From Candidatus Cloacimonadales bacterium (GTDB lineage Bacteria > Cloacimonadota > Cloacimonadia > G963667145): 64,000 nucleotides of DNA. The DNA is taken from assembly GCA_965140615.1 (NCBI GenBank), contig OZ223280.1:1268077-1332076 (forward strand), given 5' to 3'. Below the pieces are notes generated by a model. It made no database searches. It had not been told where the DNA came from and saw only the letters and a list, made by a program, of their open reading frames with translations. How positions within the stretch are numbered: the first letter of the stretch is position 1; the number at the start of each line of letters is the position of its first letter. A program made the translations under genes and the position numbers. Below are positions 1,346 to 57,897 of the stretch, piece after piece.

Positions 1346-1356
1346 TGAAGTTGTAA
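265..1356 (+). CDS. DDE transposase with an N-terminal HTH and an rve/integrase core (IS481-like). The ORF has no stop codon inside the IS and terminates in flanking DNA.
   Basis: 363-aa ORF with D (QVDIKY), D (QTDNGSEF) and E (ESAHRLVEDEF) catalytic spacing. The C-termini of the three copies diverge after ...YFYCVPP, exactly at the IS boundary. Confidence 0.8.
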   Translation: MTIMNKYIDNLKIMSRKDKKFYRKNLVKFANETSISDAAREFETTRKTVRKWVKAYKEKGEDGLVNKSRKEQNFPNRLKSEIIEEIVVCRKKAKNRWGARRIIDHLQLNCSASTVHKKLCDAGLVKKKKRKYQQRKDLSEMRARAKPFEKIQVDIKYLTDMPELFEGIKYKNYPRYQITARDYKTGMQFIGYCYEKTAVNAGIYIDFLSKRLKSCGVDLSKVTFQTDNGSEFVSPKKKGMSFFQKSVQINGANHSLIPKGSPTFNSDVESAHRLVEDEFYLIDEFDDCNDFVRKAHSYTLYFNHLRGNRGRKGKTPKQILRENSRKPNFNVLNISPIITDYYLKDIEKINKGGYFYCVPPMKL

Positions 1357-2511: not shown

Positions 2512-4140
2512 ATGAAAAAAAGAATGATGTTATTTTGGTTGATGGCTTTGAGTGCTCTTATGTTTTCTTGTTTTGACTCATCTACCAGTAGTTCAGACAG
2601 CAGTTCAGATTCTGACGATGGTTCTGGGAGTACAGAAAAGATTTCGGTAACTTTGTCGGCTCCAGCGAACGGTGCGAAAGACCAGATGTTGAGTGTGGGA
2701 TTATCTTGGAGTGGTGATGCTACTAGCTATGATTTGTATGTAGGGAGCTCATCTGAAAGTATGGATTTAAAGAAAGCAGATATTATTGGTACGAGCTATA
2801 CTTTGTCTGGGTTGGAGGTTAGCACTAATTACTGTTGGAAGTTGGTGGCTAAGAAAAGTGGATGTGAAGATGTGACTAGCGAAGTCTGGAGTTTCACTAC
2901 TGGGAATTATGGAGTGAGTTTGGCATCTCCAGAAGCAGGTGGAAAAGTATATCAAAAAGAGGTAGAGTTAACTTGGAGTGGTAATGCTGATAGTTATGAT
3001 CTTTATATAGGAACGACTGCTGAAAATATGGTTTCAAAGCAGGGTTGGTCAACCAACAAGAGTTACACATATACGCCAGATTATGGCACTTATTATTGGA
3101 AAATTGTCGGTAAATTTGGGACTAAGATTATAGAAACAGCTGTTAATAGCTTTACGACTGTTGAGCTAACTAGAGCGGAGCTTGATGTTTTAGTTGCTTC
3201 TGGTGTAGATCTTTCTAAAAATGTGGATGTTTCTGGTGTTACCGATATGAGCAATCTTTTTAAGGATAGAGCAACTTTTAATGATGATATTAGTGGTTGG
3301 GATGTGAGTAATGTTACTAATATGTCAGGTATGTTTAATGGAGCAACTGCTTTTAATCAAGAGATTGGTGGTTGGACTGTGAGTAATGTTACTAATATGT
3401 CAGGTATGTTTAATGGAGCAACTGCTTTTAATCAAGAGATTGGTGGTTGGACTGTGAGTAATGTTACTGATATGTCAAATATGTTTAAGCTAGCTTCTTC
3501 TTTTGATAAACCTATAGGAGGCTGGGATGTGAGTAAAGTTACTAATATGTTAGGAATGTTTATGAATGCTTCTTCTTTTGATAAGCCTATAGGAGGCTGG
3601 GATGTGAGTAAAGTTACTAATATGCTAGGTTTATTTAGTGGGGCGACAAACTTTAATCAAGATATTAGCGGATGGATTACTGAAAGTGCTACAACAATGG
3701 ACTGCATGTTTGCAAATACAGAAAATTTTAATGCGGATATTAGTGGTTGGAATGTGAGTAAAGTTGAGCAGTTTGGTTATATGTTCATTAATGCAAAATC
3801 TTTTAATAGAGATCTTAATAATTGGGATGTTTCTAGTGCTAAAGGAATGGGACGTATGTTTAGTAATGCAGTAAAATTTAATTGTGATTTGGATAAATGG
3901 AATGACAAAGTGGGTAATGTTACCTATATGCGTGAGATGTTTTCTGGTGCGACAATTTTTAATGGAAACATCTCTGGTTGGAAAACTGAAAATAATAAAA
4001 GCATGACAGGAATGTTTGAAAATGCTACTAGTTTTAATCAAGACCTTAGTGGCTGGGATGTAAGCAGCTTAGAAGAATATGATGACTATGATAAAGGTAT
4101 TGAAAGCACATGGACATTGGCTAGGCCGAATTTTAATTAA
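2512..4140 (+). CDS. BspA-family / DUF285 repeat surface lipoprotein. It has a signal peptide with a lipobox-like ..LMFSC, a Ser/Asp-rich linker, two ~85-aa duplicated domains and about 11 copies of the ~25-aa GWDVSxVTNMxxMF repeat.
   Basis: Repeats [24 protein letters not shown] and similar. The N-terminal [24 protein letters not shown] is followed by [15 protein letters not shown]. Confidence 0.75.
3304..3453 (+). repeat. Two perfect tandem 75-bp repeats inside the BspA-like gene; a further near-identical 75-bp pair lies at ~3494-3640
   Basis: 3304-3378 and 3379-3453 are identical 75-mers, each encoding 25 aa in frame. Confidence 0.85.
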
Positions 4141-8008: not shown

Positions 8009-8560
8009 ATGAGTAATATCAACCTTCACTTCACAGGGAAAATGTTTGGAATGGGAGCCTCGCTAGACGATTTGGCGTCTTTGCAAGCGATAAACCGACT
8101 CAAAAGAAGAGATGATGGGAAATCTTTTATTGTTCTTTTGGCGAATATAGAAGATTTGTGGAAGTATGTGGGATTTGATAGTAAATTAGAGAAATTTTTG
8201 AGTAAACTTTGGGCAGGAGAGCTTACGGTGATATTGCCTTGCTCTGCGTTGCCACACCTGTCTGTGGACGGGTTTGTTGCCTTCAGAGTGCCGAGCGATG
8301 AGCAGTTGCGACTAAAGTTACAAGAGGGAGCGATTGTCAGTACGAGCGTCAATGTTTCTGGGCAAGCACCACTGACAAGCTACGAGCAGATATTAAAGCA
8401 GCATACCGCTTGGTTTGATGAGGACTGGGTGCCTGCGGACATCACTAGGGCAGATGGGACCCCATCCACGCTGGTGAAGGTGGACAAGGGGCAGTTGACC
8501 TGCTTACGAGAGGGTTCGCTCCCATTTACCAAGGTGCAGGAGGTGTGGGCATGCTCTTAG
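8009..8560 (+). CDS. tsaC: L-threonylcarbamoyladenylate synthase (TsaC/YrdC family)
   Basis: YrdC-like fold with the signature ..IVSTSVNVSGQAPL.. Confidence 0.7.
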   Translation: MSNINLHFTGKMFGMGASLDDLASLQAINRLKRRDDGKSFIVLLANIEDLWKYVGFDSKLEKFLSKLWAGELTVILPCSALPHLSVDGFVAFRVPSDEQLRLKLQEGAIVSTSVNVSGQAPLTSYEQILKQHTAWFDEDWVPADITRADGTPSTLVKVDKGQLTCLREGSLPFTKVQEVWACS

Positions 8561-9498
8561 ATAAATTACTGCATTATCGAAAGATAGGAATATTTACGCA
8601 TAAGCAACCCGATGCGGACGCTCTGGGCTCGTGTTTCGCCTTGCAGATGGTGCTTGGGCACTCCAGAGCGGTTGTGGTGCTGGAGTCGCAGCTATCCGAC
8701 GCTCTTTTTGCAGAGTTTGGTGCTGTGAGTACTCAAGTTGCAGAAGAAGAGCTGGAAGCTGTGGTGGTGTTGGATGCTCACCAAAAGGGCAGGCTTGGCA
8801 AGTGGGAAGAGTTTGTGGGGAGCTTTAGCAAAGATGTCTTTGTGATAGACCATCATCAGCTGGGCGATGATAAACTGCCCAGTACCAGCCAGATAATAGA
8901 CACCAGTGCGGTGAGTACGGGGGTTTTGGTCTTTGCAATGTGCAGACACTTGGTCTCGGGCTGGAACGAACTCAAGAGGGCGAAATTTGCCAGAGCTATC
9001 TATTACACGATCCTTGGCGATACAGATGGCTTTCAGAATCGTAACTTGGATGCCAACTGCTTTGCGGTCTGCTCTACCTTGCTGGAGTGGGGAGTAGACC
9101 CTGCCAAAGCGTACGAAGAGTTTTTTTGCAAGATGAGCCTGCGAGAGCTGGAGTATTTGGCAAAAGTTTATAAAACTATAAAATCGCACGAGCAAGGTAA
9201 GATTGTGTTTGCTTTTAGCGATATGGAATTGCACGAAAGGCTTGGGTTTGTTTACGATGAGCTTCCCGATGTGGTCGGCAGGCTTAAGCGTCTCAAAGAT
9301 TATCAGATTATTGTCTTTTTCAAAGAGCGAGAAAAGGGGCTGTACAAGCTTAGTTTTCGCTCTAAGTCGGCAGATGTGCGAGCAATATGTAGCAATTATG
9401 GCGGAGGTGGACACCTGCTGGCGGCGGGCTGTGAGGTAGCAGACGATAGACAAAAGATAGAAAAGGCGATACTCGGGTTATGCAAGAAACAGCTTTGA
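8545..9498 (+). CDS. nrnA: DHH/DHHA1 phosphoesterase (NrnA-like oligoribonuclease / pAp phosphatase)
   Basis: HKQPDADALGS, DHHQ, and a C-terminal GGGGH motif. Confidence 0.75.
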   Translation: MGMLLDKLLHYRKIGIFTHKQPDADALGSCFALQMVLGHSRAVVVLESQLSDALFAEFGAVSTQVAEEELEAVVVLDAHQKGRLGKWEEFVGSFSKDVFVIDHHQLGDDKLPSTSQIIDTSAVSTGVLVFAMCRHLVSGWNELKRAKFARAIYYTILGDTDGFQNRNLDANCFAVCSTLLEWGVDPAKAYEEFFCKMSLRELEYLAKVYKTIKSHEQGKIVFAFSDMELHERLGFVYDELPDVVGRLKRLKDYQIIVFFKEREKGLYKLSFRSKSADVRAICSNYGGGGHLLAAGCEVADDRQKIEKAILGLCKKQL

Positions 9499-10340
9499 AC
9501 GGAGTACTTTTGGTGGACAAGCCCGCAGGCATTAGCTCTTTTGGGGTCATCTCTCAGATAAGACGGATTTTAGGCATCAAAAGGGTCGGACACTGTGGCA
9601 CTCTGGACAACTTTGCTACAGGTGTGCTGGTGGTGATGATAGGCAAAGCTACCCGCTTAGCTAGATTTGTGTCTGTTCAGGACAAAAGTTATCAGGCAAC
9701 AATCGTCTTCGGGCAGCAGACCGACACGGCTGACATCACAGGAGAGGTGATAGCCACAAGTGCTTTGCCTAGGGGACTCAGGGGCGATCTGGCAGAAAAG
9801 GTGCTGAGCATTACCTCACAAGTGCCACCGATATACTCGGCGATAAAGGTAGACGGCAAGCGAGCTTATGTCTTGGCACGCAGTGGCAGTGCAGTGCAGA
9901 TGAAGCCACGGGATGTGAAAATCTCGGAGTTCGCAGTGCAGGAGTTCGACGGCAAGCGGCTCACCTACACGGCGAGAGTGTCCAAGGGGACATATATCAG
10001 GACGCTCAGCGAGGACATCAGCGAGCTTCTGGGGGCAGTGGGGACTACGCAATCTCTTTGCAGGTTGGATTGTGCTGGATTTAGCCTTGATGAATGTGTG
10101 AGAGTAAAGCCGAATATGGACAAAGATTTTTTATTGGGCAAGGTGCTTTCACCAGATGTTTTGCTAAAAGATTTGCCTGCTATAGAGCTGGATGAGACGA
10201 ATTACGACAAGTTTTGTTGTGGTAATAGTTGGATGCAAGAAAGAGATAAAAATGACTTTACAAAAATTTACCACCGCGGAGTGTTGGTGGGTGTAGCGTG
10301 GGTCGAGCAGGGTGAGGTCAGACCCAAGATAGTGTTTTAG
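9480..10340 (+). CDS. truB: tRNA pseudouridine(55) synthase
   Basis: LLVDKPAGISSFGV...RVGHCGTLD with the catalytic Asp motif. Conserved truB-ribF gene order. Confidence 0.88.
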   Translation: MQETALNGVLLVDKPAGISSFGVISQIRRILGIKRVGHCGTLDNFATGVLVVMIGKATRLARFVSVQDKSYQATIVFGQQTDTADITGEVIATSALPRGLRGDLAEKVLSITSQVPPIYSAIKVDGKRAYVLARSGSAVQMKPRDVKISEFAVQEFDGKRLTYTARVSKGTYIRTLSEDISELLGAVGTTQSLCRLDCAGFSLDECVRVKPNMDKDFLLGKVLSPDVLLKDLPAIELDETNYDKFCCGNSWMQERDKNDFTKIYHRGVLVGVAWVEQGEVRPKIVF

Positions 10341-10353
10341 ATAGGGTGAATTT

Positions 10354-12708
10354 ATGAAAAGATTTATTAAGATTTTTATTATAATACTTTTTTCGCAAGG
10401 TATCTTGTGGTCGGCTGCTCAAAATGCACCTATCAACACCAAATTTGATAGCGAAGCGAAAAGGACAGCTTGGTGGAAAGGGCTGGAGTATCAGTGGAAG
10501 CTGACTTTCAATGAGCTACTGGGTAATGGGAAAACTGTCAAAAAGCCTAAAGATAGTTTTTTGCAAGGGCTACTAAAAAGAACTACGCTTTTTTTGTATG
10601 GGTATGGACTTACCAACATTAGTGGATTGTCTGAACTCGATCATCTGGAGAATATAAATTGTTCTTACAATAAAATCTCTAGCATAAAAGGTATAGAAAA
10701 TCTGGTAAACCTAAAGGAATTAAAGCTAAGCGACAATCGTATAACTTCTTTGCAACGCCTAAAAAACCTCAAAAAGCTGGAATATCTGCGAGCCGATTTT
10801 AACGACCTGCACGACCTTAAAGGGCTGGAGAATTTGCTTAATCTTAGGCGAGTGTATGTGAAGCGGAACTTTATCTCGTCGATCGAGCCTTTGGCGAATA
10901 AGCCTCTTTTGGAGGAGCTATCCATTAGCTACAACAAGATTGTCTCTTTGCAGCCGCTTCGCACTAGCACCAAGCTGAAGATTTTGCTGGTGCAACACAA
11001 TCTGCTGACGGACATCAAAGGGCTGGAAAGGCTGGTGAATTTGGAGCGAGTCTTCATCTTTAAGAACCGATTAACAAGCCTAGAGGGCGTGCAAAACCTC
11101 AAGAAGCTGAAAGTTTTTATGTTCTCGCAGGAGAGTGAAATTTTGCCTGAGGCAGAAAAGGAGAAAGTAAGGAAATTTTTTGCTCGAAAAAAGGCTTTTA
11201 GGTTTGGAATTGGTGGTGGATTGTTGGTGTTGTTTTGTTTAGCATTTTTTGGCTACATTTTGATAAACATTGCCAAGAGAGTAAAAAGACGCAAAGAACG
11301 AAGGAAAGAGTTTTTGCGGTTGCGGAAACTTTTTGAAAACCAAAAGGCGTCGTTTTTCGATAATAAAAAGCGACTTTACCAGTGGTGGAACAACTTGGAT
11401 GAGCAGTGGAAACGGATTTTTAATGTGCAACTGGACAACGGAAGCTCTTTGTTCTTTCCCCGAGAAGATGAGCTACGGATGCTGGTAAATAGTCGCTTTT
11501 TTAGGATGCGAGGCGACAATCTGACCAATCTTGGGGGACTGAGGAACTGCACAAAGTTGGAGCGACTTAGCTTTTACAACGAGGGTCCAAGATTTTTGAA
11601 GCTGTTTTCCGACTTAAACTTTTTAGCAAGATTTTCTGTCTTGAAGAAGATCGAGTTTTCCACAAGAGATGTGCAAAAAATCAAAAACTTTGCAAGGCTG
11701 GAAAAGATGTTCGAGATCGTAGTGCCAGCAAGCGAAATCCCTTATACTGCCAAGGGAAGTTTTATTGATGTATCTGATGATATACAAGTGCGTTATAAGT
11801 ATCCTATTGTGGCTATCGGCAACTTTGAGGGGTTGCACCTTGGGCATGCCAAGATACTCAATCGCCTCTACGCTAGAGCTGAGGACACAGGAGGAGAGGC
11901 TTTGGTGCTGACCTATAGAGTGCATACTCGGGAGCATTTCCTCAAGAAGGGGAACAAGCCAATAGCACCTTATATGATTTTGGAGAAAGATCACAAAGAG
12001 AACTTGCTATTTCATAAGTTTGGGGTGCACTCCATCTTGTATCTGGATTTTGAGAATCAGGTGGTAAACCTTACAGCCGAAGAGTTTTTTGAAGAGATTT
12101 TGATACGGAAGTTGCATATCAGGGAGATAGTTTGCGGACACGACACCAGATTTGGCAAAGATAGGAAGGGCGACTACAAGCTGTTGACAGAGCTGGCAAA
12201 GCCCTATGGGATACACATCCGCTTGGTAGATCCACTGATGATGGGTGATGAGATAGTATGTAGCAGATTGATCCGCCAGAAGATAGAAAATGGCGACATC
12301 AACGGGATTAAGCGGTATCTCTCGCGGAATTATTCGATAGTGGGTACTGTAGAGGCAGGGCGGAAGATTGGAGGGAAGCTGGGGTTTCCCACTCTGAACC
12401 TAGAGCCCAAGCAGGCATACAAGCTTTACCCAGCACAAGGGGTGTACATAACGCACACCAAGATAGGCAACAAGGGTTACTACGGTTTGACCAACATAGG
12501 GTTTGCCCCGACGGTGAGGCAAGATATTAAAAAGAAAACAATAGAAAATTACTTGCACAAATTTAGTGGTTCGCTTTATGGACAAGAGGTGAAAATCGTG
12601 TTTTTGCAGTATCTGCGGGGCGAGAAGAAGTTTGCCTCCAAAAGTGATTTGGTGCAACAGTTGAAAGAAGATTTGAAAATGCTAAAGCAATATATAAGGG
12701 TGCATTAG
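10354..12708 (+). CDS. ribF: Fusion protein: signal peptide, leucine-rich repeats, one TM helix, a second LRR-like module, and a C-terminal riboflavin kinase / FAD synthetase (RibF)
   Basis: N-terminal LRR units (LxxLxLxxNxIxxI). TM segment FGIGGGLLVLFCLAFFGYILINI followed by KRVKRRKERRKE. The C-terminal ~310 aa (YPIVAIGNFEGLHLGHAKIL ... GDINGIKRYL...PTLNLEP) is a canonical RibF. No stop codon occurs between the modules. Confidence 0.7.
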   Translation: MKRFIKIFIIILFSQGILWSAAQNAPINTKFDSEAKRTAWWKGLEYQWKLTFNELLGNGKTVKKPKDSFLQGLLKRTTLFLYGYGLTNISGLSELDHLENINCSYNKISSIKGIENLVNLKELKLSDNRITSLQRLKNLKKLEYLRADFNDLHDLKGLENLLNLRRVYVKRNFISSIEPLANKPLLEELSISYNKIVSLQPLRTSTKLKILLVQHNLLTDIKGLERLVNLERVFIFKNRLTSLEGVQNLKKLKVFMFSQESEILPEAEKEKVRKFFARKKAFRFGIGGGLLVLFCLAFFGYILINIAKRVKRRKERRKEFLRLRKLFENQKASFFDNKKRLYQWWNNLDEQWKRIFNVQLDNGSSLFFPREDELRMLVNSRFFRMRGDNLTNLGGLRNCTKLERLSFYNEGPRFLKLFSDLNFLARFSVLKKIEFSTRDVQKIKNFARLEKMFEIVVPASEIPYTAKGSFIDVSDDIQVRYKYPIVAIGNFEGLHLGHAKILNRLYARAEDTGGEALVLTYRVHTREHFLKKGNKPIAPYMILEKDHKENLLFHKFGVHSILYLDFENQVVNLTAEEFFEEILIRKLHIREIVCGHDTRFGKDRKGDYKLLTELAKPYGIHIRLVDPLMMGDEIVCSRLIRQKIENGDINGIKRYLSRNYSIVGTVEAGRKIGGKLGFPTLNLEPKQAYKLYPAQGVYITHTKIGNKGYYGLTNIGFAPTVRQDIKKKTIENYLHKFSGSLYGQEVKIVFLQYLRGEKKFASKSDLVQQLKEDLKMLKQYIRVH

Positions 12709-13074
12709 ATGAAAGTAAAAGAAATGTTGAAGTTGGTAGATGGCAAGCTATTGAGCGTGGATGCACATCTGGAGTACGATGTGTTTTTTGGTGTGGGTTC
12801 GGATCTTATTAGCGATATCTTGATGTGTGTGAAAGACTCCGCTGTGCTTTTCACGGGGCTTATTAACCATCAGATTATCCGAGTGGCAGAGATGGTGGAT
12901 ATGCAAGCCATTGTGTTTGTGCGGGGGAAAAAGCCGACGCAAGAGATGCTAGATTTGGCAAAGGAACACGATTTGCCTGTTTTATGTTCTAACTTGTCTT
13001 TGTATGAGGCTTGTGCTTTAGCGTATCAAGGTGGATTGAAACCTCTGCCGATAAAGGTTAGCATAGATGAATAG
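12709..13074 (+). CDS. DRTGG domain protein
   Basis: 121-aa ORF. Its sequence recurs as the C-terminal domain of the HydS-like protein at 13565-15172. Confidence 0.55.
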   Translation: MKVKEMLKLVDGKLLSVDAHLEYDVFFGVGSDLISDILMCVKDSAVLFTGLINHQIIRVAEMVDMQAIVFVRGKKPTQEMLDLAKEHDLPVLCSNLSLYEACALAYQGGLKPLPIKVSIDE

Positions 13075-13546
13075 GTTCGTCTATAGCAAAGATGCGGATG
13101 TAGATCCAGATGAGTTTTTGGCTGATTTGGGGCAACCTCCCATCAACTTTGAGTTCGATATAGAGCCCAAAGATTTCGTGGTGTCGGGCAAAGCTACAAC
13201 CAAGGTGAAGAAGTACCTAAAGGTGCTGGGCATAGACGCTGGCTCTTTGCGGAGGTTTGCCGTGGCTAGCTACGAGGCGGAGATAAATGTGGTGGCTCAC
13301 TCCAAGGGTGGCAAGATGATTAGTGGAATCTACCCGGAGTTTGTGCATCAGAAGTTCAGCGACGAAGGTCCGGGCATAGATGATATAGACAAGGCGATGC
13401 AGCCCGGCTACTCCACAGCGGACGAGCTGGCACGCTCTATGGGGTTTGGTGCTGGTATGGGCTTGCCAAATATTAAAGATAATGTGGACATTATGAGGCT
13501 TACATCACAGCAAAAAACGGTGATGGAGCTGGTGGTGTTTTTTTGA
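13067..13546 (+). CDS. Anti-sigma-factor-like serine kinase (RsbW/SpoIIAB-type HATPase)
   Basis: 159-aa ORF with an HATPase_c-like core (..EAEINVVAHSKGG...DEGPGID..GFGAGMGLP). Confidence 0.6.
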   Translation: MNRFVYSKDADVDPDEFLADLGQPPINFEFDIEPKDFVVSGKATTKVKKYLKVLGIDAGSLRRFAVASYEAEINVVAHSKGGKMISGIYPEFVHQKFSDEGPGIDDIDKAMQPGYSTADELARSMGFGAGMGLPNIKDNVDIMRLTSQQKTVMELVVFF

Positions 13547-13564
13547 TGAAGATGAAGAAGAAAG

Positions 13565-15172
13565 ATGATGAGTAAAGGTTCTGTCCAAGAGGATAAAACA
13601 AAGTGCATCGGTTGCACCAGATGTGTGCGTGTCTGCCCTGTATCTGCCATTCGACTGCGAGATGGCAAGGTGGAGCGATATACGCAAAGGTGCATTAGCT
13701 GTGGGCAGTGTATCAAGGTTTGCCCAGTGGGTGCTATTCAGAGTGTTTATGATGATTTTGATCAGCTGCTGCAAGACTCAAGGTTTAAGTACCGCGTAGC
13801 TTTGTTGTCTAATGTGTTTATCGGGCAACTGCCCCCAAAAGTGGACTATAAGATGGCGACGGATGCTCTTTTGCGTTTGGGCTTCGATAGGGTGATAGAT
13901 GAGAATATGATCACCGGGGTGATGGCACCGATTTTTGCCAAGAAGCTCAATCAGGCGAAGATACGGCCATTGATTTCGTCCAATTGCCCTGCGATAGTCA
14001 GGCTCATAAGATTTAAGTATCCATCGCTGTTGCCGCACATCTTGCCTCTAGAGACCTCTGTGGAGATACTCAGCACTTACTATCGGCACTATCTAGCTCA
14101 GCAGATGGGGTGTAAACTGAAGGAGATCGGCATCTTTTTTGTAGCTCCTTGTTCTGCTCAGATTACGGCACAAAAAAGCCCTGTAGGCAGGAAGGAGTCT
14201 TCCTTGGACGGTGCTTTGGCGATGAAAGATATTTATAATCGGGTGCTGAATATTTGTTATAAGCAAAAGCATGAAGAGAAGAAAGAGGAGCAAGATAGCA
14301 AAAGCACGAAGCGGCACGAGAATTGGGGCATCTATGTTTCCGAAGGAAACCAGATAAAGAAAAGCAACTTTAAGACTTTAGCCGTCAGCGGGTTCAAGGG
14401 CACAAAAGATATTTTGACCAAGATAGAAGGTGGACAGCTAGATTTTTACGACTATGTGGTACTCCGCAGTTGCACGAACGGTTGTGTGGGTGGCGATTTG
14501 AATGCGGAGAACCCATTTATTGCTTCCAATCGGATAGCGTCGTCCGATGTTGTGTTCGAGAAGATAGATAAGGAGCTTTTTTACAAACTGTTTGAGCAAG
14601 GGGAGTTCGGATTGCGAGAGGCTCTTACTCCTGTGGCGTGCGATAAAGATAGTTTGTCTATAAAGGAAAAGATTGTTAAGATGAAAAAGTACAAAGATAT
14701 CCAAAAACTTTTGCCCGGGAAAGATTGCGGAATATGTGGCTGTCCTACTTGTGCAGATTTGGCTAAAGAGATAGTGGATGGCAACGCTAAGTTCTCCGAT
14801 TGCGTTTTTAATATGCAAGAGCAAAAGAAGGTATCGTTGCCCAAGATAATAGAGGCTATCGGGGGCAAGCTCTTGAGTCAGGAGAGAGATTTGTCGCAGA
14901 TGGAGGTAAGCAGTGTCTATGCGGGCGATTTGCTTTCGGATGTGATGGCTTCGGCTGGGGATTGCCAAGTGTGGGTAACGATAATGCAACACCAGAACAC
15001 GATAGCCGTGGCATCGCTTTTGGAGATAGAGGCGGTGATTTTTGCCAAAGACAAGAAGCCCGAGCAAAAGTTGATAGAGAAAGCTAACGAAGAAGGGATT
15101 GTGCTTATTAGCAGCTCACTTTCTTCTTTTCAGATTTCGGGGATATTGTACAAAATGGTGGTGGTAAAGTAG
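13565..15172 (+). CDS. Sensory-type [FeFe]-hydrogenase-like protein (HydS-like): 2x[4Fe-4S] ferredoxin N-terminus, an H-cluster domain with non-canonical motifs, an extra Cys cluster and a C-terminal DRTGG-like domain
   Basis: CIGCTRCVRVCP and CISCGQCIKVCP. L1-like SSNCPA (canonical TSCCPxW), L2-like APCSAQ (canonical MPCxxKxxE), L3-like SCTNGCVGG (canonical MACxxGCxxGGGQP). CGICGCPTC cluster. The C-terminus is similar to ORF 12709-13074. Confidence 0.65.
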   Translation: MMSKGSVQEDKTKCIGCTRCVRVCPVSAIRLRDGKVERYTQRCISCGQCIKVCPVGAIQSVYDDFDQLLQDSRFKYRVALLSNVFIGQLPPKVDYKMATDALLRLGFDRVIDENMITGVMAPIFAKKLNQAKIRPLISSNCPAIVRLIRFKYPSLLPHILPLETSVEILSTYYRHYLAQQMGCKLKEIGIFFVAPCSAQITAQKSPVGRKESSLDGALAMKDIYNRVLNICYKQKHEEKKEEQDSKSTKRHENWGIYVSEGNQIKKSNFKTLAVSGFKGTKDILTKIEGGQLDFYDYVVLRSCTNGCVGGDLNAENPFIASNRIASSDVVFEKIDKELFYKLFEQGEFGLREALTPVACDKDSLSIKEKIVKMKKYKDIQKLLPGKDCGICGCPTCADLAKEIVDGNAKFSDCVFNMQEQKKVSLPKIIEAIGGKLLSQERDLSQMEVSSVYAGDLLSDVMASAGDCQVWVTIMQHQNTIAVASLLEIEAVIFAKDKKPEQKLIEKANEEGIVLISSSLSSFQISGILYKMVVVK

Positions 15173-15889
15173 ATGAGGTGCAAAGCCGATCTGCATATGC
15201 ACTCTGTTTTATCGCCGTGTGGGGATTACTCTATGTCGCCTTCGCTTTTGTTTGAGAAGGCTGTGCAGAGTGGATTTCAGATGGTTTCTATCACAGAACA
15301 TAACAGTCTGGCAAATGCCAGAGCTTACGATAGCATCGCCAAAAAGTTCGGTATCCACTTTATCTATGGGGTGGAGATACAGACCAACTTGGAGGTGCAC
15401 CTTTTGGCTTATTTGCCAGATAAAGATGCGGCGGAAGCTTTTGATAAAGAGCTTTACCAGAGTTTGCCCGATATTCAAAACAAGAAAAATTTCTTTGGCG
15501 ACCAAGTGTTGATAAACGAAGATGAGATGGTGCTTGGTTTCGAGAATAGACTTTTGCTCAACTCTGTGTCGTGGGATTTGCGGACGACGGCGATCAAGGT
15601 GAAAAACTATGGAGGCTTGCTGGTGGCATCGCACATAGATGCCGATAGCTTTAGTATTAGCTCGCAATTGGGGTTTTTGCCCGAGGATATCCAGTTCGAA
15701 GCTCTGGAGGTGGTGGGCGACACTACGCCGTGGGTAAAGTACGATTTGCCTTTGGTCAAAAACTCTGACGCTCACTATCTGAAAGATTTTGGTAAGCGGT
15801 ACACGGAGTACCAGATGGACGAGATAGGGTTTGAGGGATTGAAAAATGCATTGCAAAAAAAGCAAATTGCGATAAAAAGTAGCGAATAG
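15173..15889 (+). CDS. PHP-domain phosphoesterase
   Basis: N-terminal DLHMHSVLSPCGD...ITEHN, a PHP metal-binding motif. Confidence 0.65.
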   Translation: MRCKADLHMHSVLSPCGDYSMSPSLLFEKAVQSGFQMVSITEHNSLANARAYDSIAKKFGIHFIYGVEIQTNLEVHLLAYLPDKDAAEAFDKELYQSLPDIQNKKNFFGDQVLINEDEMVLGFENRLLLNSVSWDLRTTAIKVKNYGGLLVASHIDADSFSISSQLGFLPEDIQFEALEVVGDTTPWVKYDLPLVKNSDAHYLKDFGKRYTEYQMDEIGFEGLKNALQKKQIAIKSSE

Positions 15890-15897
15890 GGGGAAAA

Positions 15898-16368
15898 GTG
15901 GTGAAATGTGAAAACGCACTTTACGATGAGCTGAAAAAGATAATCCAGACGAAGGCTGAGCTGAAAGATCCTTTGATTGAGATTTTGCGAGAGGCTCAAG
16001 AGTTGTTTGGTTATTTGCCCAAAGAGGTACAGATATTTGTTGCAGAACAGATGAATTTGCCAGTGAATAAAGTTTATGAAGTGGTAACTTTTTACAACTT
16101 TTTTTCTATGAAGCCTCGGGGGAAGTTTGTGATAAATGTTTGCACTGGGACAGCTTGCTATGTGAAGGGTGCTGCGAAAGTGATAGAGATGATAGAACAA
16201 GATTTGGGTATTCAGCTAGGGCAGACTAGCCCAGATGGCAAGTTTACGCTTTCTTCTGTGCGTTGCGTGGGAGCTTGTTCGCTAGCACCAGTGGTGGTTA
16301 TCGGGCAAGATACTTATGGCAAGGTCGTTAGCAAAGCACAGGTCAAAGAGATTTTAAGCAAATATTAG
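15898..16368 (+). CDS. NuoE/HndA-like [2Fe-2S] subunit (hydrogenase gamma subunit, HydC-like), copy 1
   Basis: Thioredoxin-like [2Fe-2S] cysteine pattern: VCTGTACYVKG ... CVGACSLAPVV. Confidence 0.8.
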   Translation: MVKCENALYDELKKIIQTKAELKDPLIEILREAQELFGYLPKEVQIFVAEQMNLPVNKVYEVVTFYNFFSMKPRGKFVINVCTGTACYVKGAAKVIEMIEQDLGIQLGQTSPDGKFTLSSVRCVGACSLAPVVVIGQDTYGKVVSKAQVKEILSKY

Positions 16369-16409
16369 TGAAAAGTAGATAAAATGAAACTGACGGAAGA
16401 CCCAAGGTT

Positions 16410-16955
16410 ATGCAAGACATATCTTTACATTTATTAGACATTTTGCAAAATTCCGTGAGTGCGGGTGCGTCGCTGATTGTCTGCCGATTTGTGAAGTCTG
16501 CGGGAGTTTTGCGAGTGTCTGTGCAGGACGATGGCAAAGGGATGGATGAGCAGACCTTGCAAGCTGCTCTAGACCCTTTTTACACTAGCAAGGTGCATCG
16601 CAAGAAGAAGGTCGGCTTGGGCATTCCGCTCTTTGCACAGAGTGCTAAGCTCTCGGGTGGCTCTTTTCAGATGCAATCTAGCGTTGGTAAAGGCACGCAA
16701 TTGGAGGCAAGCTTTGTCCTTTCCAGTATAGATGCCTTGCCACTGGGGGATATAGCTTTTAGCGTGCTTACCTGTGTTGTGTCGCATCCAGAGGTAGATT
16801 TTGTGGTGGAGAGTGTGGTGGAGCAAGAGAAAGATTATTTTGATACTCGTCTGATCAAAAAGGAGTTAGAGGGCGTGCCCTTGGATCAGCCAGAGATAAG
16901 AGCTTTTATAGAAGAGCTTCTTAACCAGCAGATAGTAAAATTGGAGGAAAGATGA
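16410..16955 (+). CDS. Histidine-kinase-like ATPase domain protein (HATPase_c only)
   Basis: ..VQDDGKGMDEQTL...GLGIPL.. The position between NuoE-like and NuoF-like genes matches HydABCD-type operons. Confidence 0.6.
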   Translation: MQDISLHLLDILQNSVSAGASLIVCRFVKSAGVLRVSVQDDGKGMDEQTLQAALDPFYTSKVHRKKKVGLGIPLFAQSAKLSGGSFQMQSSVGKGTQLEASFVLSSIDALPLGDIAFSVLTCVVSHPEVDFVVESVVEQEKDYFDTRLIKKELEGVPLDQPEIRAFIEELLNQQIVKLEER

Positions 16956-17305
16956 AGTCGTTAGCAGAGTTGAAAAAGTTGAAAGAAGAAGTTCAGAAAA
17001 AGATGAACTTGAGAAATTCGGATTATAAATATAAAATCGTGGTAGGTATGGGCACTTCTGGTATCGCGATGGGAGCTAGAGAAGTTATGAGAGCTTTTTT
17101 GGATGAAATATCCAAAAGAGATATTTCGGGAGTAGTGGTAACCCAGAGTGGTGAGAAAGGTGCCTCTAGTATGGAGCCTGTAGTGGATGTGTTGGAAAGG
17201 GATGGTAAGGTTGTTACTTATTGCCAGATGAGTGCCGAGAAGGCGAAAAAAGTTATCAGTGAGCATATTGTTAATGGAAATATTATTAGTGAATATTTGA
17301 TTTAG
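16952..17305 (+). CDS. Thioredoxin-like ferredoxin-fold protein (HndB/HydD-like), apparently cysteine-depleted
   Basis: 117 aa with only one Cys. GMGTSGIAMGA sits where the CxGxxC motif would be. Confidence 0.5.
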   Translation: MKSLAELKKLKEEVQKKMNLRNSDYKYKIVVGMGTSGIAMGAREVMRAFLDEISKRDISGVVVTQSGEKGASSMEPVVDVLERDGKVVTYCQMSAEKAKKVISEHIVNGNIISEYLI

Positions 17306-17314
17306 AAGGTTAGT

Positions 17315-19138
17315 ATGTTAAAAAGGATTGATGTTTTACTGTGTTTTGGTTCTGGATGTGTATCTGCTGGAGCCAAAAAAATTAAGGAAGAGCTCCAAAA
17401 TCAGGTCAAAGCTTATGATATAGATAGCGAGGTAAACATCATAGAAACAGGCTGTATGGGACCTTGCGATTATGGACCTTTGATGCTTATTTATCCAGAA
17501 GGTGTTTTTTATAAACAGTTGAAACCTGAAGATATGAAAGAGGTGGTGGAAGAGCATTTTGTAAAGGGCAGAATCGTGGAGCGTCTTTTGATGAAAGATG
17601 AATCTGTGTCTGCAAGGGCTATTCGCAATGTGGAAGATGTGCCTTTTTACCAGAACCAAACCAAGATAGCACTCAAGCATTGCGGCTATGTAGATCCTGA
17701 GTCGCTGGAGGAGTATGTGGCTGTGGATGGCTACGCTGCTTTGGGGAAGGTATTAGAGGAGATGTCGCCCGATGAGGTGATAAAGCAGATAGCCATCTCG
17801 GGCTTGCGAGGTAGAGGAGGTGGGGGTTTTCCCACGCACCTCAAGTGGAAGTTTGCTAGAGCTGCCAGTAGCGACGATGGCGTAAAGTATATGATATGCA
17901 ACGGCGATGAGGGAGATCCGGGAGCTTTTATGGATAGGTCGCTTTTGGAAGGCGATCCGCATAAAGTACTGGAAGGAATGATGATAGCTGCTTATGCAGT
18001 GGGAGCTTGTGAGGGATTTTTTTATATTAGAGCGGAGTATCCTTTAGCTATTCAAAGAATAAAATTGGCTATCGAAAAAGCTAGAGAATTTGGGCTTTTG
18101 GGCGACAACATTTTAGGAAGTAATTTTTGTTTTGATATAGAGGTGCGTACTGGTGCAGGTGCTTTTGTGTGTGGAGAGGAAACAGCTTTGATTTCTTCTA
18201 TTGAGGGTAAGAGGGGTCATCCTAAACCAAAGCCCCCTTTCCCTGCTAACAAGGGACTCTGGGGCAAACCGACGAATATTAACAATGTGGAGACTTTTGC
18301 TAATGTTCCGTCCATCATTTTGAAAGGTGGCGATTGGTTTGCGTCGATGGGCACTAAAACCAGCAAAGGCACAAAGGTGTTTGCCCTGACTGGCGATGTG
18401 AAGAACACTGGGCTGGTGGAGGTGCCGATGGGCATCACTATCGGTGAGTTGATAGGTAAAGTGGGTGGTGGTATGAGTGATGGTCAGTTCAAGGCTGTAC
18501 AGCTGGGTGGACCCTCTGGCGGTTGCCTGACCAAAGAGCACTGGGATGTGCCGATAGATTACGACTCGTTGGTGGCTGAGGGTGCTATGATGGGTTCTGG
18601 TGGTGTGATAGTGATGAATGAAGGGAAATGTATGGTCAATGTTGCTAAATTTTTCTTGGAGTTCTCTTTGGAAGAGTCTTGTGGTAAGTGCTCCCCTTGT
18701 CGCATTGGTCTGAAGCATATGCACAATATCTTGGAGAAGATTACCGCTGGCAAGGGTACTATGGAAGATATTGTGGAGCTAGAAAAGGTTGGGGATGTGG
18801 TAAAGCGTACTTCGTTGTGCGGATTGGGGCAAACCGCTCCAAATCCTGTACTTTCTACTCTGAAATATTTCCGTAATGAATACAAAGAGCATATCGAAGA
18901 GAAAAAATGTTCGTCTCTTGTTTGCCAAGACCTTTTGCATTTTAGGATAGATAAAGCTAAATGTGTGGGGTGTTCGTTGTGTGCGAAAAAGTGTCCCACC
19001 GCTTGCATCGAAGGCTCTCGTGATGAGAAATTCACCATTTTACAAGCTGAGTGTATTAAGTGTGGGAGCTGCTTAGAGGTTTGCCCAGTGAATGCTGTGG
19101 CAAAGTTGCCGGGAAAATGGGAAGAAGAAACAATATAG
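17315..19138 (+). CDS. NuoF/HndC-like NADH-binding flavoprotein subunit (HydB-like). N-terminal Trx-like [2Fe-2S] domain and two C-terminal [4Fe-4S] ferredoxin motifs.
   Basis: GLRGRGGGGFPT, CNGDEGDPGAF, ESCGKCSPCRIG. C-terminal CVGCSLCAKKCP and CIKCGSCLEVCP. Confidence 0.88.
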   Translation: MLKRIDVLLCFGSGCVSAGAKKIKEELQNQVKAYDIDSEVNIIETGCMGPCDYGPLMLIYPEGVFYKQLKPEDMKEVVEEHFVKGRIVERLLMKDESVSARAIRNVEDVPFYQNQTKIALKHCGYVDPESLEEYVAVDGYAALGKVLEEMSPDEVIKQIAISGLRGRGGGGFPTHLKWKFARAASSDDGVKYMICNGDEGDPGAFMDRSLLEGDPHKVLEGMMIAAYAVGACEGFFYIRAEYPLAIQRIKLAIEKAREFGLLGDNILGSNFCFDIEVRTGAGAFVCGEETALISSIEGKRGHPKPKPPFPANKGLWGKPTNINNVETFANVPSIILKGGDWFASMGTKTSKGTKVFALTGDVKNTGLVEVPMGITIGELIGKVGGGMSDGQFKAVQLGGPSGGCLTKEHWDVPIDYDSLVAEGAMMGSGGVIVMNEGKCMVNVAKFFLEFSLEESCGKCSPCRIGLKHMHNILEKITAGKGTMEDIVELEKVGDVVKRTSLCGLGQTAPNPVLSTLKYFRNEYKEHIEEKKCSSLVCQDLLHFRIDKAKCVGCSLCAKKCPTACIEGSRDEKFTILQAECIKCGSCLEVCPVNAVAKLPGKWEEETI

Positions 19139-19167
19139 ATTTGAAGTTGTAAAACGAAAAGGAGGTT

Positions 19168-19608
19168 GTGTTGACTAATTTTGATAAATATCTACCAAAA
19201 CCAGAGAATATTTTACAGTTGTTGCATATGGCACAGGGTGCTAGTCCTTTGCAATACTTGAGCAAAGAAGCACTGATGGAGGTGGCGGAATATTTGAAAA
19301 TGCCTTATAATCAGGTTTATTCTGTGGCGAGTTTTTACTCTATGTTTTCTTTGAAACCCAGAAGTAAATTTGTAATTAAGGTTTGTCAGTCGCCACATTG
19401 TGTGGTGCAAGGGTCGGATAATCTTTTGGATTATTTGCAAAAAGAGACCAAGAAGATGAACGATGTGAGCCTAGAGGCTTGCCAGTGTTTGGGTGTGTGT
19501 GGCAACGCTCCTGTGGTGCTGGTCAACGACAAGGTTTACGGCAATATGACACTGGAGAAGCTGGAAGGATTGCTGCAAAACCTCAAGGAGGGTGAAAATG
19601 TTTTATAG
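19168..19608 (+). CDS. NuoE-like [2Fe-2S] subunit, copy 2
   Basis: KVCQSPHCVVQG ... CQCLGVCGNAPVV. Confidence 0.8.
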   Translation: MLTNFDKYLPKPENILQLLHMAQGASPLQYLSKEALMEVAEYLKMPYNQVYSVASFYSMFSLKPRSKFVIKVCQSPHCVVQGSDNLLDYLQKETKKMNDVSLEACQCLGVCGNAPVVLVNDKVYGNMTLEKLEGLLQNLKEGENVL

Positions 19609-38969: not shown

Positions 38970-38975
38970 TAATGG
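37899..38975 (-). mobile_element. IS copy B (older copy), body from the right end to its own start codon. Its left end, 40198-40355, has been displaced by insertion of copy C.
   Basis: Right end GTGTACCGCCCA (reverse complement at 37899-37910). The body is co-linear with copies A and C and is interrupted immediately upstream of its ATG. Confidence 0.7.
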
Positions 38976-57869: not shown

Positions 57870-57897
57870 AAATTACTTAAGACAAGGAGAGTTAAGT

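What the first reader, a model, noticed from the sequence alone, without database searches (positions are those of the whole stretch)
10354..12708. In-frame fusion of a leucine-rich-repeat membrane protein to RibF (riboflavin kinase / FAD synthetase)
The gene after truB is the expected ribF, but its ORF has a ~470-aa N-terminal extension. That extension carries a signal peptide, internalin-like LRRs, a single TM helix followed by a strongly basic stretch, and then a second copy of the same ~60-aa module (AWWKGLEYQWKLTFNELLGNG versus YQWWNNLDEQWKRIFNVQLDNG) before the canonical RibF domain. No stop codon and no convincing internal RBS separate the parts. This predicts a membrane-tethered FAD synthetase with an extracytoplasmic LRR domain, an architecture I cannot match to any described one. 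Alternatively the operon uses an internal translation start.
Basis: seen in the sequence. Interest (0 to 1): 0.5.

Follow-up and report, generated by a model that had tools for sequence, protein, structure and literature searches.

The report
Membrane-anchored LRR–RibF fusion enzyme
In a small group of uncultured Cloacimonadota bacteria, the housekeeping enzyme that makes the flavin cofactors FMN and FAD is permanently fused to a receptor-like membrane protein with leucine-rich-repeat domains on both sides of the membrane, an arrangement found nowhere else in the databases or papers searched.

Summary
Window 10354-12708 (+) is one 784-aa ORF directly after truB. It reads: signal-peptide-like N-terminus, 'WW' cap plus nine 22-residue LRRs, one TM helix with a basic C-flank, a second cap plus about three degenerate LRRs, then a complete bifunctional RibF (aa ~471-784).

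It is not an artefact. Five other chromosome-level Cloacimonadota MAGs (~1.55 Mb) and a 43%-identical metagenomic homologue carry the same uninterrupted ORF in the nrnA-truB-ribF position. dN/dS of the 470-aa extension (0.05-0.11) matches RibF (0.04-0.11). Residues 25-456 have one gapped column in seven sequences. No internal start codon is conserved: ATG452 occurs in 4 of 7.

All invariant RibF residues are kept. AlphaFold2 models the cytoplasmic cap-LRR and RibF as one rigid body (pTM 0.89). More than 120 other Cloacimonadota RibFs are plain 275-328-aa proteins. In 1.84 billion representative proteins only this clade has the TM-module-RibF region. No solved structure or paper examined describes it.

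Best reading: the cell's FAD synthetase is tethered to the inner membrane. Its periplasmic LRR has a near-invariant concave face, which suggests a conserved partner. Why it is tethered (localisation or regulation) remains inference. It is a new variant of a known enzyme, of moderate interest.

The parts
10354..12708 (+). Whole fused gene (784 codons plus stop): SP, cap, LRR, TM, cap, LRR, RibF
   Evidence: Intact orthologous ORFs of 783-784 aa in L001-L005 and 776 aa in L008.
10354..10425 (+). aa 1-24: signal-peptide-like N-terminus (MKRFIK, 13-aa hydrophobic core, WSA|AQ)
   Evidence: hydropathy peak at aa 4-22. The n/h/c layout is visible in the seven sequences, although the hydropathy peak reached the 1.6 threshold in six of them and not in L001. 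No SignalP run was possible.
10426..10569 (+). aa 25-72: N-terminal 'WW' cap 1 (AWWKGLEYQWKLTFNELLGNG), helical
   Evidence: helices 34-43, 46-55, 67-74; pLDDT above 90. The same cap motif precedes LRR blocks in P0241, P0243 and P0029.
10570..11127 (+). aa 73-258: periplasmic LRR solenoid, 8-9 repeats with an exact 22-residue period. The concave face of repeats 2-5 is nearly invariant.
   Evidence: N100, Y105, K124, D127, R129, R146, D151, R166 and F173 are invariant in 7 sequences. dN/dS 0.03-0.05.
11128..11205 (+). aa 259-284: juxtamembrane stalk helix (EAEKEKVRKFFARKKAFRF)
   Evidence: helix 266-324 is continuous with the TM..
11206..11280 (+). aa 285-309: single transmembrane helix
   Evidence: Kyte-Doolittle 2.45 in the window and 1.9-3.8 in all homologues. 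It is the fastest-evolving segment (25% mean pairwise identity, dN/dS 0.16-0.76), as expected of a plain anchor.
11281..11355 (+). aa 310-334: strongly basic cytoplasmic stretch (VKRRKERRKEFLRLRKLF)
   Evidence: 12 K/R against 3 D/E in the 25 aa after the TM. pLDDT below 50 at 315-333, so probably flexible.
11356..11487 (+). aa 335-378: 'WW' cap 2 (YQWWNNLDEQWKRIFNVQLDNG), cytoplasmic
   Evidence: E=1e-12 against cap 1 plus LRR; helices, pLDDT about 90.
11488..11721 (+). aa 379-456: about three degenerate cytoplasmic LRRs
   Evidence: beta-strand/helix repeats, pLDDT 84-94. dN/dS 0.04-0.18. No gapped columns.
11707..11709 (+). ATG452, the only plausible internal start. Not conserved.
   Evidence: present in W and L001-L003, absent in L004 and L005. 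P0007 has Lys there. Only a 4-nt AAGG lies upstream.
11722..11802 (+). aa 457-483: junction into RibF. Plain RibFs start at about aa 471.
   Evidence: one gapped column; structured, with strands at 469-472 and 484-488. The ~471 position comes from hand alignment of P0122's N-terminus.
11803..12273 (+). aa 484-640: FMN adenylyltransferase module (GNFEGLHLGH at 489-498; S637...R641)
12274..12705 (+). aa 641-784: riboflavin kinase module (PTLN 679-682, GVY 696-698, E757)
9480..10340 (+). truB, the conserved upstream neighbour in the nrnA-truB-ribF arrangement
   Evidence: Synteny in L008 and L010. In L001-L005 the ORF start follows the truB stop within 10-16 nt.

Best explanation
The gene encodes a single 784-residue bitopic inner-membrane protein that serves as the organism's bifunctional riboflavin kinase / FAD synthetase.

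A Sec-type signal peptide is predicted to export the N-terminal cap and nine-repeat LRR solenoid to the periplasm. The cell is a diderm, because the window carries LPS genes. One TM helix with a basic cytoplasmic flank anchors the protein. On the inside, a second, shorter copy of the same cap-LRR unit packs rigidly onto a catalytically intact RibF. FMN and FAD are therefore made at the cytoplasmic face of the inner membrane by an enzyme that is mechanically linked to a periplasmic protein-binding domain. The nearly invariant concave face of that domain implies one conserved, endogenous partner.

Shown:
- one conserved ORF
- purifying selection on every segment
- intact RibF motifs and fold
- restriction of the architecture to one clade

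Inferred:
- signal-peptide cleavage and topology
- that this is the only RibF in the genome
- rigid docking, which rests on an AF2 model only

I think the most likely purpose of tethering is localisation or scaffolding. That could couple flavin-cofactor synthesis to riboflavin uptake, or to flavin delivery to membrane or periplasmic flavoproteins. I consider ligand-gated control of activity less likely.
For: - ORF and domains.
- Same full-length ORF in five other chromosome-level Cloacimonadota MAGs and in a 43%-identical homologue, always after nrnA-truB.
- dN/dS of the N-terminal 470 aa is 0.05-0.11 against 0.04-0.11 for RibF. The periplasmic LRR is the most constrained segment at 0.03-0.05.
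- One gapped column in aa 25-456 across 7 sequences, and a near-invariant concave face on LRR 2-5.
- No conserved internal start.
- The real start has a 5-nt SD (GGTGA); ATG452 has only a 4-nt match.
- No promoter or terminator signal above chance inside the gene.
- Two hydrophobic segments only, with a stronger positive charge after the TM.
- All 23 invariant and 20 near-invariant RibF columns are retained.
- AF2 full-length model pLDDT 88; aa 335-784 alone pLDDT 91.8 and pTM 0.89.
- The fold matches type I FADS (TM-score 0.86-0.89) and internalin/Roco LRRs.
- LPS genes (lipid A acyltransferase, LptF/G) lie in the window.
- No second mainstream-type RibF from a 1.54-1.59 Mb contig appears among the top hits.
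Against: - There is no experimental evidence for translation, topology or activity.
- The TM is basic on both flanks (+4 before, +9 after), so the positive-inside argument is only relative.
- ATG452 with a weak AAGG exists in 4 of 7 lineages, including the window, so a minor soluble isoform cannot be excluded there.
- The rigid-docking inference rests on a model in which only 7 sequences cover the cytoplasmic LRR.
- 'Sole RibF' is weak negative evidence, because whole genomes could not be scanned. The search also unexpectedly failed to list the fused proteins themselves.
- Nothing in the 64-kb window links the gene to a pathway partner. There is no riboflavin synthesis gene, flavin transporter, ApbE, Rnf or FMN riboswitch.
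Confidence: 0.65

Rival explanations
1. Receptor-like regulation. Binding of a periplasmic ligand to the LRR ectodomain changes the oligomeric state or conformation of the cytoplasmic LRR-RibF unit, and so tunes FMN/FAD synthesis. This would be a one-component transmembrane sensor whose output domain is a cofactor-biosynthetic enzyme.
For: - The SP, LRR, single TM, cytoplasmic effector layout is that of receptor proteins.
- The concave LRR face is conserved.
- The geometry is rigid and free of indels from the ectodomain to the enzyme.
- The oligomeric assembly of Corynebacterium FADS is described as a head-to-tail dimer of trimers (abstract of PMC5428420, listed). Oligomer control of activity is therefore conceivable.
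Against: - The basic segment right after the TM is predicted to be disordered (pLDDT below 50 at 315-333). That is a poor conduit for conformational signalling, although dimerisation-type signalling would tolerate it.
- No ligand, partner or regulatory precedent for RibF is known.
- An essential housekeeping enzyme is an odd target for on/off control.
Confidence: 0.15
2. Two functionally independent products. Most RibF is made as a soluble protein from an internal start (ATG452 or a non-canonical codon). The LRR-TM part is a separate membrane protein that merely shares the reading frame.
For: - ATG452 is preceded by AAGG at 9 nt in W and is present in L001-L003.
- Residue 452 lies only 19 aa upstream of where plain RibFs begin (hand alignment of P0122).
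Against: - ATG452 is absent in L004, L005 and P0007. Those lineages have no ATG/GTG/TTG between aa 449 and the RibF core strand (V486), except for one TTG at aa ~473 in L004 only.
- No stop codon has appeared at the junction in any of 7 lineages, despite saturated synonymous divergence (dS above 1).
- The junction and cytoplasmic LRR are under purifying selection, almost free of indels, and modelled as one body with RibF.
- There is no internal promoter-like site.
Confidence: 0.12
3. Assembly or sequencing artefact: a lost stop codon or a frameshift joins an LRR gene to ribF.
For: One related contig (L009) does show the region broken into several ORFs.
Against: - Six independent chromosome-level assemblies and one further metagenomic contig keep the same frame and length, at 43-83% identity.
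- L009 is collinear with L004 at 86% nt identity but switches frame 3, 1, 2, 3, and truB is broken as well. That is the signature of an indel-rich long-read contig.
Confidence: 0.01
4. Inverted topology: the N-terminal LRR is cytoplasmic and RibF lies outside the membrane.
For: Both TM flanks are basic.
Against: - The N-terminus has a typical n/h/c signal-peptide layout in all homologues.
- The C-flank carries about twice the net positive charge of the N-flank.
- From established biochemistry, RibF needs ATP and Mg2+, which are not available in the periplasm.
- The homologous multi-unit WW-cap LRR proteins inspected (P0241, P0243, P0029) begin with signal-peptide-like N-termini, so they are probably secreted.
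Confidence: 0.02

Closest known systems
Bacterial type I bifunctional FAD synthetase (RibF/RibC), e.g. Corynebacterium ammoniagenes FADS (PDB 2x0k), Streptococcus pneumoniae (3op1), Thermotoga maritima TM379 (1mrz)
   Same: The C-terminal 314 aa have both Pfam domains, pass TIGR00083, keep every invariant residue and match the fold with TM-score 0.78-0.89. The gene sits in the usual position after truB.
   Different: Known RibFs are soluble proteins of about 270-340 aa. More than 230 close homologues listed here are 275-346 aa. This one carries a 470-aa extension containing a signal peptide, a TM helix and two LRR domains.
Other recorded RibF / riboflavin-kinase fusions: the TruB/RibF and RibB/RibFk single cases in the Henry et al. 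2016 fusion catalogue (PMC4921024), and a plant FAD synthetase fused to an inactivated FAD pyrophosphatase (PMC9678776). From my own knowledge, B. subtilis RibR and archaeal RbkR are kinase-regulator fusions.
   Same: They show that flavin-cofactor enzymes do occasionally acquire extra domains.
   Different: All listed partners are soluble enzymatic or nucleic-acid-binding domains. No LRR or membrane partner appears in the catalogue text held or in the searched literature.
Secreted multi-unit 'WW-cap' LRR proteins of the FCB group, e.g. the 866-aa Limibacter armeniacum LRR protein P0029, and P0241 and P0243
   Same: They share the WWxxLxxxWKxxF cap followed by 22-residue LRRs. This is the only family that matches the cytoplasmic module.
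   Different: Those proteins have 3-9 such units and neither TM helix nor enzymatic domain. The three inspected begin with signal-peptide-like N-termini, so they are probably extracytoplasmic. Here one unit lies on each side of a TM helix, and the second is fused to RibF.
Receptor-like single-pass LRR proteins (plant LRR receptor kinases and Toll-like receptors, from my own knowledge) and the LRR-plus-kinase and LRR-Roc-COR proteins among the hits (P0018, P0020, P0041, P0047)
   Same: The overall logic is the same: an LRR recognition domain joined in one polypeptide to an effector domain, and, for the single-pass receptors, a signal peptide, an LRR ectodomain and one TM helix. The LRR fold is close to the Roco and internalin LRRs.
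   Different: The effector here is a metabolic enzyme and not a kinase, TIR or GTPase. A second LRR sits on the cytoplasmic side. No evidence of signalling exists.

Membership tests
Type I bifunctional FAD synthetase (RibF, TIGR00083) | N-terminal FMNAT module with the nucleotidyltransferase GxFDGxHxGH motif and the downstream S..(I)R motif | tested here: met
   G489-N-F-E-G-L-H495-L-G497-H498, S637 and R641 occupy the invariant or near-invariant columns of 53 RibFs. Pfam FAD_syn 120 bits against a cutoff of 27.
Type I bifunctional FAD synthetase (RibF, TIGR00083) | C-terminal riboflavin-kinase barrel with the PTxN motif, GxY and the conserved R..E..F segment | tested here: met
   P679-T-L-N682, G696-V-Y698, R755, E757 and F760 are retained. 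Pfam Flavokinase 121 bits against a cutoff of 19.6.
Type I bifunctional FAD synthetase (RibF, TIGR00083) | Whole-protein score above the curated equivalog cutoff | tested here: met
   TIGR00083 scores 194.2 against 184.35. The narrower PRK05627 sub-models fall below their cutoffs, with the best at 240.1 against 241. This fits a divergent RibF that is only 43% identical to the nearest plain Cloacimonadota RibF.
Type I bifunctional FAD synthetase (RibF, TIGR00083) | Two-module FADS fold | tested here: met
   Foldseek against the PDB: 3op1, 2x0k and 1mrz at E=1e-20 to 1e-22, target-normalised TM-score 0.79-0.89. pLDDT is above 90 over most of aa 484-784.
Type I bifunctional FAD synthetase (RibF, TIGR00083) | RFK and FMNAT catalytic activity | not testable with these tools
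   Needs enzyme assays or complementation of a ribF-depleted strain.
Type I bifunctional FAD synthetase (RibF, TIGR00083) | Soluble protein of ~300 aa with no other domains (the usual form, not strictly defining) | tested here: not met
   784 aa with a signal peptide, a TM helix and two LRR domains. This is the feature that makes it a new variant.
Listeria-type internalins | Match to the curated internalin models (cap, LRR, inter-repeat Ig-like region, wall anchor) | tested here: not met
   The best score is 70.8 bits against a cutoff of 1600 for InlA, and the match covers only the LRR stretch aa 82-253. The resemblance is limited to the 22-residue repeat type.
22-residue bacterial LRR (Pfam LRR_4 / LRR_8) | Tandem LxxLxxLxLxxNxIxxIxxLxx repeats scoring above the gathering threshold | tested here: met
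   LRR_4 83.4 bits against 27 and LRR_8 34.7 against 27. There are eight to nine repeats in exact 22-aa register from aa 73. The AF2 solenoid has pLDDT 92-98.
FCB-group multi-unit 'WW-cap' LRR proteins (unnamed family; P0029, P0241, P0243) | WWxxLxxxWKxxF cap preceding each LRR block | tested here: met
   Two copies are present (aa ~38-60 and ~343-365). The internal alignment gives E=1e-12. phmmer hits to the family reach E=3e-12 to 1e-4. The motifs are visible.
FCB-group multi-unit 'WW-cap' LRR proteins (unnamed family; P0029, P0241, P0243) | Several tandem units in a secreted protein with no TM helix or enzymatic domain | tested here: not met
   Only two units are present. They are separated by a TM helix, and the second is fused to RibF. 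Pfam finds only LRR families in the relatives.
Receptor-like single-pass LRR transmembrane proteins (functional analogy) | Signal peptide, LRR ectodomain, one TM helix and a cytoplasmic effector | tested here: met
   Sequence-level only: hydropathy, charge bias and the AF2 helix at 266-324.
Receptor-like single-pass LRR transmembrane proteins (functional analogy) | Ligand-dependent control of the cytoplasmic domain | not testable with these tools
   There is no ligand or partner candidate. A conserved concave face is compatible with this but is not proof.

The most novel reading that the evidence does not exclude
The protein is a true transmembrane coupling device for flavin metabolism. The periplasmic LRR binds a conserved envelope partner, such as a flavin-handling or flavinylated periplasmic/membrane protein or a transporter component. 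Through dimerisation or scaffolding it then gates or channels FMN/FAD synthesis at that site. This would be the first case of a cofactor-biosynthetic enzyme used as the output domain of a receptor-like LRR protein. It would also be a handle on how diderm anaerobes match flavin supply to extracytoplasmic demand.
Probability: 0.15. Interest if true: 0.8.

Novelty: new variant of a known kind. Interest (0 to 1): 0.5.

Why it matters
RibF is an essential enzyme that is normally soluble, and bacterial FAD synthetases are studied as antibacterial targets (PMC7012052, listed). The fusion has survived sequence divergence to 43% identity with every segment under purifying selection. That implies that where, or under what envelope condition, FMN and FAD are made matters to these cells.

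If the periplasmic partner could be identified, it would give a concrete, testable link between cytoplasmic flavin-cofactor synthesis and the cell envelope, for example riboflavin salvage, flavin export or flavinylation of respiratory complexes. It also adds a rare bacterial example of a receptor-like LRR protein with LRR domains on both faces of the membrane. For annotators, the 470-aa extension should not be trimmed to an internal start.

Tried and rejected
- **Sequencing error or missing stop.** Rejected, because seven lineages keep the ORF.
- **L009 / P0121 (419 aa) as a natural split form.** Rejected. The contig shifts frame repeatedly and truB is broken too.
- **L017 as a free-standing relative of the N-terminal part.** Rejected. 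It is a cytosolic multi-LRR protein with no TM helix and an unrelated C-terminus.
- **Internal promoter or terminator at the junction.** Site counts are at or below shuffled expectation. The hairpin at 11738-11757 is at chance level and lies in non-conserved codons.
- **Flavin context in the window.** There is no FMN riboswitch. Pfam annotation of about 45 ORFs found no rib genes, flavin transporter, ApbE or Rnf.
- **Functional link to the downstream [FeFe]-hydrogenase cluster with FMN-binding NuoF-like subunits.** The adjacency is not conserved in L008, so it is not used as evidence.
- **Foldseek against AFDB50, to look for the architecture in UniProt.** The library was unavailable.
- **Exact-sequence look-up of P0001 for sample metadata.** Not on record. 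No source gives these proteins a name.
- **Metagenome scan for more members or unfused intermediates.** None found.
- **Literature.** No paper links RibF or FAD synthetase with LRR or membrane anchoring.
- **Unexplained tool behaviour.** The search with the RibF part alone did not list the fused proteins P0001-P0007. Negative conclusions from that search are therefore treated as weak.
Full report
**1. What is there**

Window 10354-12708 (+) is a single 784-codon ORF. It starts 13 nt after the truB stop and has a 5-nt Shine-Dalgarno match (GGTGA).

- Pfam finds LRR_4/LRR_8 over aa 74-257, FAD_syn over 485-638 and Flavokinase over 656-780.
- NCBIfam's ribF equivalog TIGR00083 is passed, at 194.2 bits against a cutoff of 184.35.
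- By hand alignment of P0122's N-terminus, plain RibFs begin at the position of residue ~471.
- Only two hydrophobic segments exist. The first is a short N-terminal one (aa 4-22) with a basic n-region and WSA|AQ after it. The second is a strong one at aa ~285-308, followed by 12 K/R in 25 residues.
- The repeated module is real and larger than reported. aa 31-150 align with aa 335-454 at 29% identity, E=1e-12. The segment between the TM helix and RibF is thus a second cap-plus-LRR unit.
- The ectodomain has eight to nine repeats in exact 22-residue register.

**2. It is not an artefact**

- A search of 5.8 billion proteins returned seven clusters with both LRR and RibF domains, at 43-100% identity and 776-784 aa where complete.
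- Five come from other chromosome-level MAGs (1.54-1.59 Mb) named Candidatus Cloacimonadota or Cloacimonadales. Each has one uninterrupted ORF whose ATG lies 10-16 nt after truB.
- The most distant homologue, P0007, sits in the same nrnA-truB position on a metagenomic contig.
- One related contig, L009, shows the region in pieces. It is collinear with L004 at 86% nt identity, changes frame four times and has a broken truB as well. I read this as long-read indel error.

**3. The extension is translated, and the fusion is maintained**

- Nei-Gojobori dN/dS for aa 1-470 is 0.05-0.11 in the pairs where dS could be estimated. This equals RibF at 0.04-0.11.
- The periplasmic LRR is the most constrained segment (0.03-0.05). 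The TM helix is the least constrained (0.16-0.76), as expected of a simple anchor. dS exceeds 1, so the ratios are approximate.
- Across seven sequences, residues 25-456 contain a single gapped column.
- No internal start is conserved. ATG452 is present in W and L001-L003 but is replaced in L004, L005 and P0007. In those lineages the only shared start-type codon before RibF is GTG486, inside the first core strand.
- In this window 67% of predicted starts have an SD match of at least 4 nt, against 27% of internal ATGs. ATG452 has a 4-nt match, which is uninformative.
- No promoter- or terminator-like signal exceeds shuffled expectation.

**4. Structure and topology**

The AF2 full-length model has mean pLDDT 88.2. 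It shows:

- a helical cap and LRR solenoid at aa 30-260, with pLDDT above 90
- one continuous helix at 266-324 through the membrane, with a low-confidence basic stretch at 315-333
- a second confidently folded cap and short LRR at 338-456
- a canonical RibF

The pTM of 0.58 reflects the flexible membrane linker. When aa 335-784 are modelled alone, pLDDT is 91.8 and pTM 0.89. This suggests that the cytoplasmic LRR is docked on RibF rather than tethered loosely. Only seven sequences inform that interface, and I could not inspect the coordinates.

Foldseek matches the C-terminus to type I FAD synthetases (3op1, 2x0k, 1mrz; TM-score 0.79-0.89). It matches the N-terminus to internalin, Roco and SDS22 LRRs. 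No solved chain spans both.

Lipid A acyltransferase and LptF/G genes in the window indicate a diderm cell, so the ectodomain should be periplasmic.

**5. The enzyme looks functional and is probably the only one**

- All 23 invariant and 20 near-invariant columns of a 53-sequence RibF alignment are retained.
- More than 120 other Cloacimonadota RibFs, at 52-67% identity to the plain RibF P0122, are 275-328 aa. None lies on a contig of 1.54-1.59 Mb, and the same holds for the top hits to this RibF domain.
- This is weak negative evidence that the fused genomes have no ordinary second copy.
- In another Cloacimonadota genome the locus is rbfA-nrnA-truB-ribF with a plain 317-aa RibF that overlaps truB by 4 nt. 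That is the likely ancestral state.

**6. Distribution and origin**

- An exhaustive HMMER scan of 1.84 billion representatives with aa 280-484 found the TM-module-junction region only in the two 50%-identity clusters of this clade.
- Weaker hits are to secreted LRR proteins of 800-900 aa, such as one from Limibacter armeniacum. In these the same WWxxLxxxWKxxF cap precedes each of 3-9 LRR blocks.
- The extension therefore derives from a common FCB-group LRR type.
- No free-standing SP-LRR-TM-LRR protein and no unfused intermediate was found, including in JGI metagenomes.

**7. How it most likely works**

I commit to a constitutively membrane-tethered FAD synthetase.

- *Shown:* a single conserved ORF, selection on all parts, and an intact catalytic module.
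- *Inferred:* a cleaved signal peptide, an out-TM-in topology, and rigid coupling of the cytoplasmic LRR to RibF.
- The concave face of LRRs 2-5 is almost invariant even at 43% overall identity (N100, Y105, K124, D127, R129, R146, D151, R166, F173). This argues for one conserved endogenous periplasmic partner and against a variable external ligand.
- *Not shown:* the reason for tethering. Localisation or scaffolding of flavin synthesis next to an uptake, export or flavoprotein-assembly site seems most likely to me. Ligand-gated regulation is the more novel alternative, at about 0.15.
- Nothing in the 64-kb window points to a partner. There are no rib genes, flavin transporter, ApbE or Rnf, and no FMN riboswitch.
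- The adjacent hydrogenase cluster with FMN-binding subunits is not conserved next to the gene in L008.

**8. Comparison and novelty**

- By every testable criterion the protein is a member of the type I FADS family. The exception is the usual soluble ~300-aa form.
- It is not an internalin (70.8 bits against a cutoff of 1600).
- It shares the cap-LRR unit with the multi-unit FCB LRR proteins but not their architecture.
- It resembles receptor-like LRR proteins in layout only.
- The riboflavin fusion catalogue of Henry et al. 2016 lists RibFa/RibFk, TruB/RibF and RibB/RibFk but no LRR partner in the text held. Literature searches found nothing on LRR- or membrane-linked RibF. No source database names these proteins.
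- I rate it a new variant of a known kind. The architecture is real, conserved and undescribed, but it is confined to a small uncultured clade and its mechanism is untested. Interest is 0.5.

Noticed in passing
window 265-1356 (+), 37876-39003 (-), 38933-40057 (-): Three copies of the same HTH_32/HTH_28 transposase-like ORF (363-375 aa). The first and third are 99% identical (356 of 360 residues). Two copies lie head-to-tail and overlap by about 70 nt. This looks like a recently active IS in a 1.55-Mb genome.
   Followed up: partly
window 12709-22902 (+): Immediately downstream of the fusion gene lies a HydABC-type [FeFe]-hydrogenase cluster. It contains a DRTGG protein, a sensory HydS-like Fe_hyd_lg_C+FeS+DRTGG protein, PHP, NuoE-like and HATPase_c proteins, two NuoF-like FMN-binding subunits and HydA. 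The adjacency to ribF is kept in L009 but not in L008.
   Followed up: partly
window 2512-4140 (+): A 542-aa protein made of four DUF285 repeats (365 bits). This is another repeat-type putative surface protein in the same small genome.
   Followed up: no
window 27684-29345 (-): A 553-aa fusion of a class I/II aminotransferase with a HAD_2 phosphatase domain, next to hisG (29342-30199). It may be a histidinol-phosphate aminotransferase fused to a phosphatase.
   Followed up: no
window 57850-59625 (+): A 591-aa ORF with only a weak PEPCK_ATP match (47 bits over aa 123-518). It is a divergent PEPCK-like protein.
   Followed up: no
window 11738-11757 (+): A terminator-like hairpin (TCCCTTATACTGCCAAGGGA followed by a T-rich tail) lies inside the junction codons 462-469. 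The number of such sites in the region equals shuffled expectation (5 against 4.6), and the codons are not conserved in L004 and L005.
   Followed up: partly
window 10100-10850: GC content drops to 0.36-0.41 across the start of the LRR region, against 0.50-0.55 in truB and 0.43-0.49 in RibF. This may reflect the K/N/I/L-rich LRR composition, or a foreign origin of the extension.
   Followed up: no
L009 1-2954: This contig, related to L004, has truB and the fusion gene split into five ORFs by frame changes (3, 1, 2, 3) at 86% nt identity. It is most likely long-read indel error. The gene call P0121 (419 aa) is an artefact of this.
   Followed up: yes
RibF domain, window 11764-12705: The RibF module of the fused clade is only 43% identical to the nearest plain Cloacimonadota RibF. 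More than 120 other Cloacimonadota RibFs are 52-67% identical to that plain RibF (P0122). The lineage is therefore either deep-branching or fast-evolving.
   Followed up: partly
window 8009-8560 / 8545-9498: A short (183-aa) Sua5/YrdC-family ORF overlaps the start of the DHH/DHHA1 (nrnA-like) gene by 16 nt. In L010 rbfA occupies the position upstream of nrnA instead.
   Followed up: no
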